NCBI GenBank assembly: GCA_030645615.1 | Contig: JAUSNB010000015.1 | Location: 320,035-384,034, forward strand | Reading direction: 5' to 3' | Source: Actinomycetota bacterium | GTDB taxonomy: Bacteria; Actinomycetota; Actinomycetes; S36-B12 | Length of the DNA stretch: 64,000 nucleotides | Part shown: one piece after another, positions 57,001 through 63,000 of the stretch | How the letters are laid out: every line of letters begins with the position of its first letter | How positions within the stretch are numbered: position 1 is the first letter of the stretch | Position numbers: made by a program

Positions 57001-60000
57001 GGATCTCGGTCCACGAGCCACAGACCGAAACGCCGGGATTGCGCTCGAGATACTCGACCTGGCGCGACAGCCTGTCCGGGAAAGTCAGGTCGTCCTGGTC
57101 AAGCCAGGCCACATACGTGCCGCGAGCCTCCTGCATGATGAGGTTGCGCACGCCGACCAGACCGAGGTTCTCCTCGTTCTCGATCAGTCGAATGCGCGGT
57201 TCGCCGAGCGATCGGATGATGTCGACACTGGAATCCGATGAGCAGTCATTGACCGCCAGCAGTTCCCAGTTGCCGTGCGTCTCCGCCTGCACGCTGGCCA
57301 GGGCCTCGGCGATGTACTCCTGGCCGTTGTACACGGCCATCCCGACCGTGACGAGGGGGGGCGTGGCGGGCACGGGCCTCACGATACCGAGCACCCCTCT
57401 ACGCTGAGGCTGTCTGTGTATGGCACCGAGGGAGGGCATTCGTGTGCGGGATCGCCGGTGCCTTCTGGTCGCATGCGCATGACGTCGACGGCATACAAGA
57501 GGGCCTAACCCGCGCCGTGGCTGCCATGCACCATCGTGGCCCGGATTCCGCCGGGCAGGTGCTGTGGGGTCCCGAGGGTGGCTCGGGCGCCGTGGCGATC
57601 CTGGGTTCGACGAGACTCGCCGTACTGGACCGAAGCGCGGCGGGCCGGCAGCCGATGTCCACGGAGGATGGCCGGTTCACAGTCGTGTACAACGGCGAGA
57701 TCACAAACTACCTCGAGATCCGGACACGGCTTGCGGCAACTGGATCGCGATTCTCCTCCGGCAGCGACACGGAAGTGCTCCTTCAAGCATGGTCACAGTG
57801 GGGCTTGGAGTCACTCAGGCATCTGGAGGGGATGTACGCATTCGCAGTAATTGACCGAGTTGAAGCGACCCTCACCGTGTGTCGGGACCCATTCGGTATC
57901 AAGCCCCTGTACTACCGGCACTTCCCTGACGAGGGCTTCGTTTTCGGGAGTGAGATCTCCAGCATCCTGCCGTTGCTTCCGGGAGCGCTCCGGCTCAACT
58001 GGCGAGTCGCCGGACGGTTCCTGTCGTCTGGGTACTGCGACGACTCACCTGAGACTTTCATCGATGGGATAAACCAACTCATGCCCGGTGACGTCATCCG
58101 GGTCCACCTGCGCACGTCCCTGGTGGAACGATTGGCGCAGGCATGGCGACCGGGCATTGGCACGGATGAGGCTCTGTCGCACAGGGATGCCGTCGATGGA
58201 GTTCGGTCCCTCTTCCTCGCCAGCGTGGAGCGAAACTTGAGGGCTGATGCACCCCTGGGCATCGCGCTGTCCGGAGGGATCGATTCCAGTTCCATCGCAT
58301 GCGCTGTCCGAGCGGTGGCCCCTGACCATCCGCTCAACCTCTACTCGTATCAATCCTCGGATTCCCGGACTGACGAGTCCCGGTGGGCAGGGCTGGTGGC
58401 GCAGCAGTTGGGCGCCACCGTCCACACGGTCTGCCCCACGCCGAACGACCTCGCGACCGACATGGACGACCTCATCCTCACTCAGGGTGAACCCTTCGGG
58501 TCAACCAGCATCTATGCCCAGTACCGCCTCTTCCGACTGATGCACGAGCACGGCATGGTCGTGTCTCTTGATGGCCAGGGCGGTGACGAGGTCTTCGCCG
58601 GCTACCACGGGTTCGCCGGTCAGCGGTTACGCAGTCTGGCGGAAACCGGTGACGTCGTGGGTGCGGCCCGCTTCTCTGCTGCCTGGGGCCGCTGGCCGGG
58701 ACGGTCCGTACCCAAGGCGTGGGCGCTGGCCGGGGCTGAGATCGCACCGCTGTGGGCCGTTTCGGCTGGCGCCAGGGTCCTGCCCGGGTATGCCCTGCCG
58801 GGTGTGCGCATGCCGGTCCTGCGGGAGCGTGGCTTGGCCTGGGGCTGGCTACCGGATCGGGCGTCAAATGATGGCCTGCGGGGGGTCCGGGTCAAGGCGG
58901 AGCTCCGGGCCGCTCTGACAGAACGCGGGCTGCAGGTGCTGCTGCGGCACGGTGACCGCAATTCAATGAGATTCTCAGTCGAAAGCCGCGTGCCGTTCCT
59001 TGATCGCTCCCTGGTGGAGTTCGTACTGTCGTTCCCGGAGCATTGGCTCGTCGATGAGGCAGGTACGAGCAAGGCGGTTCTTCGACATGCGATGCGAGGA
59101 CTGGTCCCCGACGCGGTCTTGGATCGCCGCGACAAGATCGGCTTTGCGGGGGATGCCTCGTGGGTCGACGCTCAGCGCGGTGTGCTGGCCGAGCAGATCG
59201 CGGCGGCTCCGGATATCGGTTTCCTGGACAAGCGGGCACTCCTTCGGGGTGCGTTCGGACCAGCGGTCAATCGGGTCGCCCCGGACCAGTTATGGCGCGT
59301 GTTCAACCTCTACCGATGGGCAGATCTCCTGGGAGTGGACTGCACCTAGGCGGGCACTGCGGCACCGGCAGGTACCTGCGCTCGGGTAATCTGATGATCC
59401 AGACCGTCCCGGGCGGCATCACGAGGCGAAGACCGAGGGGCAGGAGAGGGCATGTGCGGGATCTTCGGAATCGTCTCGAACTCCATCGTCTCGCAAAGGG
59501 ATCTGCGGATCCTCGCCTCCCATGCGGAGCAGCGTGGGAAGGACTCAAGCGGACTCCTCTTGCACGGAGATGCCGGATACCGCGTCATTCGATCGTCGTC
59601 GCCGATCAAAGGGCTCCTTGACAGCATCGAGGCGACCACCACCGGCTTCGTCATGGGCCACAGCCGCCTCGTGACGAATGGGCTCGCGGACAATCAGCCC
59701 GTCGTGCGGGACGGCGTGTGCGTGATCCACAACGGCATCGTGGTCAACGATGAGGCCATCTGGCCTCGTATCGGCAAGGAGCGGGAGCTGGAGGTCGACT
59801 CGGAGGTTATCGCGGCGCTCGCGGCAGAGGTTCTCGATGGCGGTGGAACCGTCGAAGACATATCGACGCGCGTCCTGGAGATGTGCGAAGGCACCGTCGC
59901 AACAGCAGTGGCGCTACCCAGCCTTGGCAAGCTCTGCCTGTTCTCCAACAATGGCAGCCTTCACTTGGGGGTCAAGGGAGACAGCACCTGCTTCGCGTCG

Positions 60001-63000
60001 GAGTCCTTCGCGCTGACGCGGATTGGTTGCACGGATGTGCGCCAGATCAAGGAAGGCGTCGTCCTCGACATTCCCGTAGCTGCGTCGGTGACGGTCGTCG
60101 ATAGGGCGGACTCCCGAGACAGGAACCTGATCCCGAACCTCGGCACGTGCGCTTCCGAGGAGCGATTGCTGGAAGAGCGGCAATACGAACTGCGCCGATG
60201 CACCAAGTGCATCCTGCCTGAGACGATGCCGTTCATTCAGTTCGATCATGATGGTGTCTGCAACTACTGCGCCCACTACACGCCGAGCCGGCTCCGGCCC
60301 AAGGAGGAGCTCCTGGAGATCCTCACGCCCTATCGCCGCCCCAATGGCGAGGAATGCATCGTTCCGTTCTCTGGTGGGAGGGACAGTTCGTATGCCCTCC
60401 ACCTGATAGTCAACGAACTGAATCTTCGGCCGATCACCTACACGTACGACTGGGGCATGGTCACCGACCTCGGGCGTCGCAATATCAGCCGCATGTGCGC
60501 ACAACTTGGTGTCGAGAACATAGTGGTCGCCGCGGACATCGCGAAGAAGCGTCGGAACATCGCGCTGAATCTGGCTGCCTGGCTCAAGTCTCCGAACCTG
60601 GGCATGATCAGCATCCTTACGGCCGGGGACAAGCACTTCTTCCAGCACGTCGAAACCGTCAAGGAGCAGACCGGCATCGAACTGAATCTCTGGGGTATCA
60701 ATCCCCTGGAGACCACGCATTTCAAGGCGGGCTTCCTGGGCGTCCCTCCGGACTTTGAAGAGACCCGCGTCTACACTCATGGTGTCGCCAAGCAGTTGCG
60801 ATATCAGTCGCTCCGCCTGCGGGCGATGCTCCACAGTCCCGGGTACTTCAACAGGTCCCTGTGGGACACGCTATCCGGCGAGTACTACCGAAGCTTCCAG
60901 GAGAAGTCGCATTACCTGCATGTCTTCGACTACTGGCACTGGGACGAGCGCACGGTCGACGAGTCACTGCAGCAATACGACTGGGAGAAGGCACCTGATA
61001 CCCAGACGACATGGCGTATTGGTGATGGAACGGCTGCCTTCTACAACTACGTCTACTACACCGCCGCCGGCTTCACGGAGCACGACACTTTCCGCAGCAA
61101 TCAGATCCGGGAGGGAGACCTCGGGCGCGCAGAAGCGCTGGCCCTGGTAGCCGACGAGAATCGTCCCCGGTACCCCAACATCAAGTGGTACCTCGACGCG
61201 ATCGGGATGGACTTCCGGGAGGTCATTCAGGTGGTCAACGCAATGCCTCGGCCCACGCCGAGTTCGGCCCTGCTGGCTCCGCGGTAGCGCCGGTGCCCGT
61301 AGCGCGTCCACGCGTCCTGCACGCCTCTCTCGTACCAAGGATCAGTCAGGGGATCGCGACCCAACTAGTGCTTGAGAAGAGGGCAGCACGGGACCTTGGT
61401 CTTCCCTGGGAGACTGCGCTGTACTCACCGCGGTCCGATCTTGAGCCATTCCCGGAGCCTTTGAACCGAGGGCCGGCATACCTGAAGCAGGCAAGCCGGG
61501 CGTCCACTCGCGACCGGCTCCTGACCAACGTGAGGCTCAAGCGCGCCTACTACTCATGGTTGGAACTCATCGAGCCGGAGTTCGATGTGCTGCTCCTTCG
61601 GTACAGCGTGCACGACCGGGCGCAGGCGCGTTTCGTACGGGACAGTCACGCTTTCGTTGGCCTCGTTCATCATGCGTTCGAAGTGGACGAACTGAACGCT
61701 CTAGACGGATGGGTCGGGAAAGCGCGGTCGCGCCTTGAGGCAAGACTCGGGCCTCGCTCTATCGGCTGTTCTGACGCAATAGTGGGCGTGACACAGGAGA
61801 TTACCGACCATGAGGTCTCGAGGATCCCTGATGCGCCGAAGCTGACGCTGGTCTACCCGAACGGGGGTGCGGATGACGTGACTCCGATCGCGGATCGTCG
61901 ATCAGCCACACCGGAGCTGCTGTTCGCCGCCAGCTACTTCTCGCCGTGGCAGGGTCTGGACCTGCTGCTCGGGAGCCTCGGCTCCTGCAACAAGGAGTTC
62001 ATCCTGCACCTTGCGGGCGAGATGAGCCCTCGCGATGCCGAGGCCGCGGGGCGCGATCCACGTGTCGTGGTGCACGGATCGCTGTCCCCGCAGGAGATGC
62101 GCAAGGTGGCGGAGGTCTGCTGGATCGGCGTGTCCTCGCTGGCCATCGAGAGACAGGGCTTCCAGACAGCGTGCCCCCTGAAGGTGAGGGACTACTTGGC
62201 GATGGGGCTGCCGGCTGTGGGCAATCACCTCGAGGTCTTCCCCGAGGCCTTCCCGTTCTACGCCAGGAGGGCTCCGGACGCCTGCTCGCTTCTGGAAGCT
62301 GCCCATCAATGGAGAGCCGTATCCCGCTCAGAGGTAGCCACGACGTCGCATCCCTACATCAGCAAGAAGTTGATTCTCCAGGCCTTCTACGACGAACTGG
62401 CCCAGGCGTGGAGCAACGGTGAAGGGCGGCATTGAGGTGCCCGGCGCCGGACCCGTGACGGAGGCAATGCGTCCCCGTGTGCTGCTTTTCACCGACACAT
62501 ACCCCGTTGCGGGCGCGGAGGATCCCTTCCTTGCGGTCGAGGTACGCGAGTTGGCCAGGCGCCTTGACCTAGTGCTCATCCCGACGACCCATGCACGAGG
62601 GCTGCTGAGCCCGGTGCCGACAAATGTCGCTTTCGAGGCGGGGCTCGCTGAGTACCTCATGAGCATCAGGGGTCGCGTCGCGGGACTGCTTCGAACCTTG
62701 TTCCATCCCGGGACATACAGGGAGGTTGCATCCTTCCGTTCCCGCGCAATTGATCCTCGAGTGGTGACTGCCGTCGTGGTCCGGGGCTCCCGGATGTTCG
62801 GTACTCAGAGGTGGTTGCGCCGGTACCTGGTTCAAGCTCGGCCAGTTGTCGCGTACACCTGGTGGGCGTCATCTGCGGGGTACGGTGTGGCGCGCGCGGC
62901 GAGTGATGTCGGCATCCCCAGCGTCACCAGGATCCATGGATACGAGCTCTATCCGGAGCAGGACCGATTGGGACGAATCCCGTTCCAGGAGAGCGGGCTT

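What the first reader, a model, noticed from the sequence alone, without database searches (positions are those of the whole stretch)
57442..61287. Back-to-back Ntn amidotransferases; the second fuses a class-II glutaminase to a PseA/WbpG-type acetamidino-forming enzyme
Seen: both ORFs start M-C-G-I (Cys2 nucleophile). The first is a standard AsnB type (SGGIDSS PP-loop). The second has ~200 aa of GATase-2. These are followed by the CxxC...CxxC ribbon (RRCTKCILPETMPFIQFDHDGVCNYC) and the SGGRDS PP-loop typical of N-acetyl-sugar amidotransferases.

Established: PseA, WbpG and Cj1324-type enzymes are implicated in converting N-acetyl to acetamidino groups (for example Pse5Ac7Am and Leg5Am7Ac). 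They usually sit next to HisH/HisF-like (class-I glutaminase/cyclase-like) partners. AsnB-like enzymes in glycan loci amidate carboxyl groups, such as uronamides.

Inference: the ammonia supply has been rewired by fusing a class-II glutaminase, and no HisH/HisF-like genes are visible in the window. The glycan probably carries both an acetamidino group and an amidated carboxylate.
Basis: partly seen in the sequence, partly recalled or inferred. Interest (0 to 1): 0.65.

Follow-up and report, generated by a model that had tools for sequence, protein, structure and literature searches.

The report
Self-contained glutamine-fed sugar amidotransferase beside AsnB
Two neighbouring genes in a huge surface-sugar gene cluster encode glutamine-using amidating enzymes; the second belongs to a widespread, uncharacterised and mislabelled family that fuses its own glutaminase to an acetamidino-forming-type enzyme instead of relying on the usual HisH/HisF helper proteins.

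Summary
ORF1 (57442-59349) is a bona fide AsnB-family enzyme. ORF2 (59452-61287) joins a class-II (Ntn) glutaminase domain to a C-terminal domain with a PP-loop and a four-cysteine zinc ribbon. That C-terminal domain resembles N-acetyl-sugar amidotransferases (NASAT: WbpG/WbuX/PseA). Every catalytic residue is present and near-invariant across 141 divergent relatives.

The interpretation needs four corrections.
- The fusion is not peculiar to this window. It is a large family (at least 236 species genomes, many phyla) annotated as "glucosamine 6-phosphate synthetase", AsnB or hypothetical. I found no paper on it.
- Its C-domain is a divergent sister of canonical NASATs: TIGR03573 scores 123 bits against a cutoff of 203, and identity is about 25-35%.
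- It is not a simple swap for the HisH/HisF form. No HisH/HisF is near it in 60 of 83 related loci, but 14 loci carry a complete canonical NASAT+HisH+HisF trio as well.
- Its conserved neighbours make N-acetylated hexuronic acids, including WbpA/B/D/E-like genes just past the window end. NeuB is near it in only 2 of 57 loci.

Best reading: ORF2 is a single-chain glutamine-dependent acetamidino synthase acting on a (di)N-acetyl-hexuronic acid, and ORF1 makes the uronamide. No chemistry has been tested.

The parts
57442..59349 (+). ORF1: AsnB-family glutamine-dependent amidotransferase (635 aa), proposed WbpS-type uronamide synthase
   Evidence: TIGR01536 scores 380 bits against a cutoff of 267, with GATase_7 and Asn_synthase domains. 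The second-best NCBIfam model is TIGR03108 (eps_aminotran_1) at 296 bits, below its cutoff. Start is M-C-G-I with an SD-like GGGAGGG upstream. It is syntenic with the fusion in L003 and L004, and adjacent to it in L080.
57442..57972 (+). ORF1 class-II (Ntn) glutaminase domain, Cys2 nucleophile
   Evidence: GATase_7 matches residues 57-176 and the AsnB model matches 1-177.
58270..58287 (+). ORF1 PP-loop, SGGIDS
   Evidence: Read from the translation and the alignment.
59452..61287 (+). ORF2: fusion protein (611 aa), class-II glutaminase plus NASAT-like PP-loop/zinc-ribbon synthetase
   Evidence: Full-length homologues at 59-86% identity.
59452..60114 (+). ORF2 N-terminal Ntn glutaminase domain (aa 1-221): Cys2, Arg28, Arg72, Asn94-Gly95, Asp116
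   Evidence: Residue-by-residue alignment to the E. coli GlmS glutaminase domain 1xff. Foldseek TM 0.72, rmsd 3.4 A to 1xff. These residues are 96-100% conserved in 141 divergent family representatives.
60199..60270 (+). ORF2 four-cysteine zinc ribbon, C250-x2-C253 ... G-V-C270-x2-C273
   Evidence: Matches the NASAT motif CXXCXn[GN]XCXXC defined in PMC10607449. The cysteines are 98-100% conserved.
60370..60387 (+). ORF2 PP-loop, SGGRDS (aa 307-312)
   Evidence: 100% conserved in 142 sequences. Aligns with the PP-loop of PDB 8WEX.
60196..61209 (+). ORF2 NASAT-like synthetase domain (aa 249-586)
   Evidence: TIGR03573 E=1.7e-35, 123 bits, below the 203-bit cutoff. phmmer hit to 8WEX at E=1.5e-11. 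Foldseek to 8WEX at E=3e-13, TM 0.56-0.57.
61293..62435 (+). GT-B glycosyltransferase, 6 bp downstream of ORF2, probably co-transcribed
   Evidence: Weak Glyco_trans_1_4 hit. Gene call in L087. No terminator-like site anywhere in 56000-64000.
62419..63714 (+). GT4 glycosyltransferase
   Evidence: Glyco_trans_1_4, Glycos_transf_1 and Glyco_transf_4 hits.
56306..57439 (-). Divergent GT2 glycosyltransferase; same position in the syntenic locus L003
   Evidence: Glycos_transf_2 at 110 bits. Synteny with L003.

Best explanation
ORF2 is a single-polypeptide, glutamine-dependent, ATP-dependent sugar amidotransferase.

Proposed mechanism:
1. The N-terminal Ntn (class-II) domain hydrolyses glutamine through Cys2.
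2. The ammonia passes within the protein to the C-terminal NASAT-like domain.
3. That domain uses its PP-loop to adenylate the carbonyl oxygen of an N-acetyl group.
4. Ammonia displaces AMP, giving an acetamidino group.

The enzyme therefore works like AsnB in layout (Ntn glutaminase plus PP-loop synthetase) and like WbpG/WbuX in chemistry. It does so without HisH/HisF.

The most likely substrate is a nucleotide-activated N-acetylated hexuronic acid. In this organism that is probably the 2,3-diacetamido-2,3-dideoxy-hexuronic acid made by the WbpA/B/E/D-like genes just downstream.

ORF1 is a WbpS-type AsnB homologue that converts the C-6 carboxylate of such a sugar to the carboxamide. AsnB, the fusion and the two downstream glycosyltransferases form one co-directional unit.

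Shown: the architecture, the intact and conserved catalytic residues, independence from HisH/HisF, and the association with hexuronic-acid genes.

Inferred: the ammonia channel, acetamidino rather than amide chemistry, the exact substrate, and which N-acetyl group is modified.
For: The glutaminase residues Cys2, R28, R72, N94-G95 and D116 align to E. coli GlmS. They are 96-100% conserved in 141 representatives clustered at 50% identity. The zinc cysteines and SGGRDS are conserved there too.

The AF2 model has pLDDT 80 and pTM 0.82. By Foldseek the N-domain matches GlmS 1xff at TM 0.72, and the C-domain matches the Legionella NASAT 8WEX at E=3e-13, TM 0.56. AsnB, ASNS and beta-lactam synthetase align over the full length.

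No HisH/HisF is in the window or in the 4.5 kb beyond it. None lies within 10 kb in 60 of 83 related loci. Where HisH/HisF occur, a canonical NASAT is almost always there to account for them.

L087 is 100% identical to window 49452-64000. Downstream it shows hexapeptide acetyltransferase, DegT, a UDP-GlcNAc-3-dehydrogenase-like GFO enzyme and a UDP-ManNAc-dehydrogenase-like gene. The same order occurs in L003.

Uronic-pathway markers are within 10 kb in 36 of 57 long loci. In Pseudomonas-type loci the fusion occupies the slot (after wzx, before a GT4) that hisH2-hisF2-wbpG hold in P. aeruginosa O5 (the O5 gene order is from my own knowledge).

A Leifsonia locus has only a UDP-ManNAc-dehydrogenase-like gene, the fusion and GT4s.

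An AsnB-type WbpS was shown to make the uronamide of the Wbp-pathway sugar (PMC7468200). That leaves the amidine role for the NASAT-like enzyme.
Against: - No member of the fusion family has been tested biochemically or genetically, as far as I could find.
- The C-domain scores below the TIGR03573 trusted cutoff and is only about 24-39% identical to canonical NASATs, so the reaction type could differ.
- The fusion coexists with a complete canonical trio in 14 of 83 loci and with AsnB in 15 of 57. Neither function is excluded by non-redundancy arguments.
- In most proteobacterial loci the tightest neighbours are GT4, PglC, PglD, PglE and PglF (a diNAcBac-type pathway). This allows a different substrate.
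- 13 of 57 long loci show no uronic-acid marker within 10 kb.
- I could not inspect model coordinates, so the ammonia tunnel is inferred from the pTM and by analogy with AsnB.
Confidence: 0.55

Rival explanations
1. ORF2 amidates a carboxylate rather than an N-acetyl group. It would be a second type of uronamide synthase, making HexNAcA-amide, or it would amidate some other carboxylate. The NASAT-like PP-loop domain would adenylate a carboxyl group, as AsnB, NAD synthetase and QueC do.
For: The C-domain is below the NASAT HMM cutoff. RefSeq labels a 41%-identical relative as QueC.

The minimal Microbacteriaceae module is just a UDP-ManNAc-dehydrogenase-like gene, the fusion and GT4s.

The fusion coexists with a full canonical NASAT trio in 14 of 83 loci.

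T. forsythia makes ManNAc-uronamide from a cluster that has wecB, wecC and one 605-aa 'AsnB' of unverified type (PMC6120980).
Against: The window and 14 other long loci already carry an AsnB/WbpS-type enzyme beside or near the fusion. That type has been shown to make uronamide.

The zinc-ribbon and PP-loop signature, the best sequence hit and the best fold hit for the C-domain are all NASAT.
Confidence: 0.22
2. ORF2 forms the acetamidino group on a nonulosonic acid (Pse5Ac7Am or Leg5Am7Ac type) made by the NeuB pathways of the same island.
For: The window has two NeuB genes, PseB/PseC-like genes and three CMP-transferases. PseA-type NASATs act in NulO pathways (own knowledge).
Against: The NeuB genes lie 18 and 50 kb from ORF2. 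NeuB is within 10 kb of the fusion in only 2 of 57 long loci. The conserved neighbours are hexuronic-acid and diNAcBac genes and GT4s. The syntenic L003 block carries no NeuB.
Confidence: 0.1
3. ORF2 modifies an N-acetyl group of the reducing-end 2,4-diacetamido-2,4,6-trideoxyhexose (diNAcBac-type sugar) or its lipid-linked form.
For: The block fusion-GT4-PglC-PglD-DegT-PglF is the most conserved arrangement. GT4a is present in 38 of 57 long loci, PglC in 37, and GT4a is usually immediately adjacent to the fusion.
Against: The window, its close relatives L003 and L004, and all Microbacteriaceae loci lack this block next to the fusion yet keep a 62-79%-identical enzyme.
Confidence: 0.1
4. ORF2 is what the databases call it: glucosamine-6-phosphate synthase (GlmS) or asparagine synthetase B.
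For: Source annotations say so. The N-domain does resemble the GlmS glutaminase domain.
Against: There is no SIS isomerase domain and no Asn_synthase domain. GlmS models match residues 1-221 only, at 57-66 bits against cutoffs of 381-418.
Confidence: 0.01

Closest known systems
Canonical N-acetyl-sugar amidotransferases (NASAT; TIGR03573: WbpG, WbuX, PseA, AglX, LpNASAT PDB 8WEX) with HisH/HisF-like partners
   Same: Both have the PP-loop SGGxDS, the zinc-binding CXXC...[GN]XCXXC ribbon, the fold (Foldseek TM 0.56 to 8WEX) and a location in surface-glycan clusters rich in N-acetylated amino-uronic acid genes.
   Different: Sequence identity is only about 24-39% and the HMM score is below the family cutoff. 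The ammonia source is a fused class-II Ntn glutaminase, not a separate class-I HisH plus a HisF-like protein. The two systems coexist in some clusters, which implies different substrates or positions.
Asparagine synthetase B family (AsnB, WbpS/WbqG/WbtH uronamide synthases, beta-lactam synthetase)
   Same: The overall design is the same: an N-terminal Ntn glutaminase (Cys after the initiator Met) followed by a PP-loop ATP-pyrophosphatase domain. Full-length Foldseek hits reach E of about 1e-13. ORF1 is itself a member.
   Different: The ORF2 C-domain has no Asn_synthase Pfam match. It carries a zinc ribbon that AsnB lacks. The N-domain is closer to the GlmS and PurF models than to AsnB (66 and 52 bits against 34). 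The presumed acceptor is an amide carbonyl rather than a carboxylate.
GlmS (glucosamine-6-phosphate synthase), the name given in databases
   Same: The N-terminal glutaminase domain matches, with all catalytic residues and TM 0.72 to 1xff.
   Different: There are no SIS or isomerase domains. The C-terminal 360 residues are unrelated.

Membership tests
Class-II (Ntn) glutamine amidotransferase domain (ORF2 aa 1-221) | N-terminal nucleophile Cys directly after the initiator Met | tested here: met
   M-C-G-I-F-G. Cys2 is present in 137 of 142 family sequences; the other 5 have alignment gaps at the start.
Class-II (Ntn) glutamine amidotransferase domain (ORF2 aa 1-221) | Oxyanion-hole Asn-Gly and glutamine-binding Arg and Asp | tested here: met
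   R28, R72, N94-G95 and D116 align with GlmS R26, R73, N98-G99 and D123 (GlmS numbering from my own knowledge). They are 99-100% conserved.
Class-II (Ntn) glutamine amidotransferase domain (ORF2 aa 1-221) | Curated HMM threshold and fold | tested here: met
   GATase_6 scores 36.7 bits against a cutoff of 27. Foldseek to 1xff gives TM 0.72, rmsd 3.4 A.
NASAT / TIGR03573 (WbuX, WbpG, PseA) - ORF2 C-domain | PP-loop SGGXDS | tested here: met
   SGGRDS at aa 307-312, invariant in the family. Motif definition from PMC10607449.
NASAT / TIGR03573 (WbuX, WbpG, PseA) - ORF2 C-domain | Tetracysteine zinc motif CXXCXn[GN]XCXXC | tested here: met
   C250-TK-C253 ... G-V-C270-NY-C273, 98-100% conserved.
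NASAT / TIGR03573 (WbuX, WbpG, PseA) - ORF2 C-domain | Score at or above the curated family cutoff | tested here: not met
   123.1 bits against a cutoff of 203.2. A canonical NASAT from the Agrobacterium cluster scores 228.6.
NASAT / TIGR03573 (WbuX, WbpG, PseA) - ORF2 C-domain | Fold of the solved NASAT (8WEX) | tested here: met
   Foldseek E=3e-13, TM 0.56-0.57 normalised to 8WEX, about 400 aligned columns. Parts of the C-domain model have low confidence: residues 386-392, 421-443, 478-485 and 519-524.
NASAT / TIGR03573 (WbuX, WbpG, PseA) - ORF2 C-domain | Works with adjacent HisH-like and HisF-like partners | tested here: not met
   None in the window or the +4.5 kb extension. None within 10 kb in 60 of 83 related loci.
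NASAT / TIGR03573 (WbuX, WbpG, PseA) - ORF2 C-domain | Converts sugar N-acetyl to acetamidino | not testable with these tools
   Needs enzymology or glycan MS/NMR.
Asparagine synthase (glutamine-hydrolysing), TIGR01536 - ORF1 | Curated HMM threshold, Ntn Cys2 and PP-loop | tested here: met
   380.2 bits against a cutoff of 267.1. GATase_7 plus Asn_synthase domains, MCGI start and SGGIDS.
WbpS/eps_aminotran_1 (TIGR03108) uronamide-type AsnB - ORF1 | Curated HMM threshold | tested here: not met
   295.6 bits against a cutoff of 816.9. The glycan role is inferred from context only.
Asparagine synthase family - ORF2 | Asn_synthase C-terminal domain | tested here: not met
   No PF00733 hit. TIGR01536 matches aa 2-195 only, at 33.8 bits.
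GlmS (database name for ORF2 homologues) | Two SIS isomerase domains after the glutaminase domain | tested here: not met
   No SIS hit. GlmS models cover aa 1-221 only and score far below their cutoffs.

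The most novel reading that the evidence does not exclude
The fusion family is not just a NASAT with a different ammonia donor. 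It would be a distinct, self-sufficient amidotransferase with its own reaction or regiospecificity. Examples are a 2-N-acetamidino hexuronic acid, or an amide or amidine not made by WbpG-type enzymes. It would have evolved an AsnB-style intramolecular ammonia channel independently. It would be non-redundant with both the canonical NASAT/HisH/HisF trio and AsnB, which is why all three can sit in one cluster. As a single protein it would give the first tractable in-vitro system for sugar acetamidino (or related) chemistry.
Probability: 0.3. Interest if true: 0.65.

Novelty: new variant of a known kind. Interest (0 to 1): 0.5.

Why it matters
Acetamidino and uronamide groups remove or reverse the charge on bacterial surface sugars. 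They shape recognition by antibodies, phages and tailocins.

The acetamidino step is still biochemically obscure. The only structural paper says little is known about how these enzymes work (PMC10607449), and the canonical system needs three proteins.

A single-chain, glutamine-fed version would be an easier object for reconstituting the reaction and mapping an ammonia channel. It is found in hundreds of species from Actinobacteria to Campylobacter and Bacteroidota.

The practical point is annotation. Thousands of database entries for this family are named "glucosamine 6-phosphate synthetase", AsnB or QueC. This hides an amidation step when glycan structures are predicted from gene clusters.

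Tried and rejected
- **Literature.** Six full-text searches and targeted reads found no description of a class-II-GATase::NASAT fusion. Subscription-only papers were not searchable.
- **Looking for a named, characterised member.** Cluster look-ups, the plasmid collection and a second homologue search seeded with a Bacteroidales member gave only generic or wrong names. That last search was meant to show whether T. forsythia Tanf_01265 belongs to the family. T. forsythia was not among the 120 listed hits, so this stays open.
- **Tandem duplication of ORF1 and ORF2.** Rejected (BLASTP E=0.16).
- **GlmS or AsnB identity for ORF2.** Rejected on domain content.
- **Using co-occurrence to choose between amidine and amide chemistry.** The fusion co-occurs with AsnB (15 of 57 long loci) and with the canonical NASAT (20 of 83, 14 of them with HisH+HisF). 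Redundancy arguments therefore do not decide between them.
- **Promoter and terminator scan of 56000-64000.** Nothing informative: 3 weak promoter-like sites and 0 terminators.
- **Ammonia tunnel.** I could not read the coordinates of the AF2 model, so the Cys2-to-PP-loop distance and any tunnel were not measured.

Full report
**What is there**

The two ORFs are real and lie exactly as reported. ORF1 is 57442-59349 (635 aa, GTG start). ORF2 is 59452-61287 (611 aa, ATG start). Both are on the + strand, both begin M-C-G-I, and both have a Shine-Dalgarno-like run upstream.

ORF1 passes the curated asparagine-synthase model (TIGR01536, 380 bits against a cutoff of 267). It has GATase_7 and Asn_synthase domains and an SGGIDS PP-loop.

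ORF2 has two parts:
- Residues 1-221 form a class-II glutaminase domain. GATase_6 scores 36.7 bits against a cutoff of 27, and the GlmS and PurF N-domain models match only this stretch.
- Residues 249-586 match the N-acetyl-sugar amidotransferase model TIGR03573 (WbuX) at E=1.7e-35. The score of 123 bits is below that model's 203-bit cutoff.

The two proteins are not duplicates of one another (BLASTP E=0.16).

**Are the catalytic parts intact?**

Aligned with the E. coli GlmS glutaminase domain, ORF2 keeps Cys2, Arg28, Arg72 (HSRLVTNG), Asn94-Gly95 (HNGIV) and Asp116 (VDSEV).

I aligned 141 full-length family representatives taken from a library clustered at 50% identity. In that set:
- These glutaminase positions are 96-100% conserved. 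The few sequences lacking Cys2 have alignment gaps at the start.
- The four zinc-ribbon cysteines (C250, C253, C270, C273) are 98-100% conserved.
- SGGRDS (307-312) is invariant.

The zinc ribbon fits the CXXCXn[GN]XCXXC motif, and the PP-loop fits the SGGXDS motif. The only NASAT structure paper uses these two motifs to define the family (PMC10607449).

An AlphaFold2 model has pLDDT 80 and pTM 0.82. By Foldseek:
- the N-domain matches the GlmS glutaminase domain (TM 0.72);
- the C-domain matches Legionella NASAT 8WEX (E=3e-13, TM 0.56);
- AsnB, human ASNS and beta-lactam synthetase align over the whole length.

The N-domain evolves faster than the C-domain (median 49% against 74% identity across 83 genome loci) while keeping its catalytic residues.

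**How common is the fusion?**

It is a large family.
- One homologue search gave more than 7,800 hits. The top 120 were all full-length, 603-625 aa.
- A scan of one genome per species found at least 236 species carrying it at 59-79% identity. They include Actinobacteria, all classes of Proteobacteria (Campylobacter concisus, Pseudomonas, Hamiltonella and Arsenophonus among them), Bacteroidota, Planctomycetota, Firmicutes and Verrucomicrobia.
- An exhaustive HMMER search found 459 50%-identity clusters at E<=1e-30. Nearly all of the best 150 carry both domains and are 600-690 aa long.

Database names are "glucosamine 6-phosphate synthetase", "GlmS", "asparagine synthetase B", "7-cyano-7-deazaguanine synthase", "predicted glutamine amidotransferase" or "hypothetical". 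None fits the domain content. I found no paper that describes the fusion.

**HisH/HisF**

No HisH or HisF homologue is in the window. This holds for the Pfam scan of about 57 ORFs and for tblastn at E<=1, which also covered 4.5 kb beyond the window end.

Across 83 related loci with up to 10 kb on each side:
- 60 have no canonical NASAT, HisH or HisF;
- 14 have a complete canonical NASAT+HisH+HisF trio in addition to the fusion;
- 6 have a canonical NASAT only;
- 3 have HisH, with or without HisF, but no detected NASAT.

One annotated Agrobacterium plasmid cluster carries a canonical NASAT (228 bits, above the cutoff), hisH, an "AglZ/HisF2 family acetamidino modification protein", two asnB genes and the fusion.

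The fusion is therefore independent of HisH/HisF, which supports the built-in ammonia supply. It is an additional enzyme rather than a one-for-one replacement.

**What does it act on?**

A public contig, L087, is 100% identical to window 49452-64000 and continues past the window end. After the fusion come two glycosyltransferases and an unknown gene. Then follow a hexapeptide acetyltransferase, a DegT aminotransferase, a GFO oxidoreductase and a UDP-ManNAc-dehydrogenase-like gene. The best NCBIfam match for the GFO enzyme is UDP-GlcNAc 3-dehydrogenase. This is the WbpD/E/B/A set that makes UDP-2,3-diacetamido-2,3-dideoxy-hexuronic acid. The 79%-identical locus L003 has the same order.

In 57 loci of at least 15 kb:
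- 36 have a uronic-pathway marker within 10 kb;
- 44 do if AsnB is counted;
- only 2 have NeuB.

In Microbacteriaceae the neighbourhood shrinks to a UDP-ManNAc-dehydrogenase-like gene, the fusion and GT4s. In most proteobacterial loci the fusion is immediately followed by GT4-PglC-PglD-DegT-PglF.

The window's two NeuB genes are 18 and 50 kb away. An N-acetylated hexuronic acid is the best common denominator.

**Division of labour**

A P. gingivalis AsnB homologue (WbpS, PGN_1234) was shown by deletion and MS to convert the Wbp-pathway diNAc-glucuronic acid to its amide (PMC7468200). ORF1 is the natural candidate for that step here.

It is syntenic with the fusion in the close relatives L003 and L004 and adjacent to it in a Bacteroidota locus. 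That leaves the acetamidino step for ORF2, in line with its closest sequence and fold relatives.

This assignment is an inference. The C-domain is only about 24-39% identical to canonical NASATs, and the fusion coexists with both AsnB and canonical NASATs in some clusters. A carboxylate-amidating role therefore cannot be excluded, and I give it about 0.2.

**Verdict**

ORF2 is a member of a widespread, uncharacterised and misannotated enzyme family. I class it as a new variant of a known kind: NASAT-like chemistry with AsnB-like architecture.

It is of moderate interest. The main reasons are that it offers a one-protein route to studying sugar acetamidino formation, and that its annotation is wrong across the databases.

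Noticed in passing
window 49427-56309: A cassette of HpcH/HpaI-type aldolase (-), CMP-type cytidylyltransferase (-), GFO oxidoreductase, SIS isomerase, SDR, 3-dehydroquinate-synthase-like enzyme, D-2-hydroxyacid dehydrogenase and RmlD-like reductase. It looks like a pathway to a CMP-activated keto-acid sugar built on an HpcH aldolase rather than NeuB or KdsA. Part of it (HpcH, cytidylyltransferase, 2-hydroxyacid dehydrogenase, RmlD-like) recurs in L003.
   Followed up: no
window 1846-10356 and 38843-43002: The island holds two separate NeuB genes (7786-8823 and 40345-41475) and three CTP_transf_3 cytidylyltransferases (9595-10356 -, 42283-43002, 49427-50203 -). It also has PseB/PseC-like genes (1846-3955), a PIG-L deacetylase and an ATP-grasp gene. 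That makes at least two nonulosonic-acid pathways in one 64-kb glycan island.
   Followed up: no
window 12258-17741 and 28760-30533: A group of genes suggests synthesis of a heptose or other higher-carbon sugar. They are a SIS isomerase, a HAD phosphatase, a transaldolase/FSA, two epimerases, a PfkB-kinase plus cytidylyltransferase fusion (HldE-like) and a split transketolase (N- and C-terminal halves as separate genes, - strand).
   Followed up: no
window 10031-12244, 47542-49638 (-), 25137-26321 (-), 34084-35184, 45355-46491, 30530-31426 (-): Several long ORFs with coding-like GC3 inside the glycan cluster have no Pfam hit. Two of them are about 700 aa.
   Followed up: no
window 4000-6770: This is a lower-GC stretch (0.61 against about 0.66). 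It holds a 720-aa ORF (-) with only a weak formyltransferase-like segment, followed by a PIG-L deacetylase.
   Followed up: no
window 36194-37900: A NodU/CmcH-type carbamoyltransferase lies inside the cluster, along with at least six SAM-methyltransferase genes elsewhere in the island. This suggests heavily decorated sugars.
   Followed up: no
window 57437-57444: The ATG of the divergent GT2 gene (- strand, 57439) and the GTG of ORF1 (57442) are 2 bp apart. The two genes share no intergenic region, and the called GT2 start overlaps ORF1's ribosome-binding site. The true GT2 start may be internal.
   Followed up: partly
L085/L086 (Agrobacterium sp. MA01 plasmid NZ_CP045856.1, 187-226 kb): One plasmid-borne O-antigen-type cluster carries four amidotransferase systems at once: a canonical NASAT, hisH plus AglZ/HisF2, two asnB genes and the fusion. 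It also has a formyltransferase and WbpA/B/D/E-like genes. It would be a good genetic model for separating their roles.
   Followed up: partly
literature: T. forsythia Tanf_01265: The T. forsythia O-glycosylation cluster has a single 605-aa 'AsnB' next to wecC and wecB, while the glycan carries both ManNAc-uronamide and Pse5Am (PMC6120980). A later paper states that T. forsythia has no asnB homologue of P. gingivalis WbpS (PMC7468200). Tanf_01265 might belong to the fusion family. I could not obtain its sequence.
   Followed up: partly
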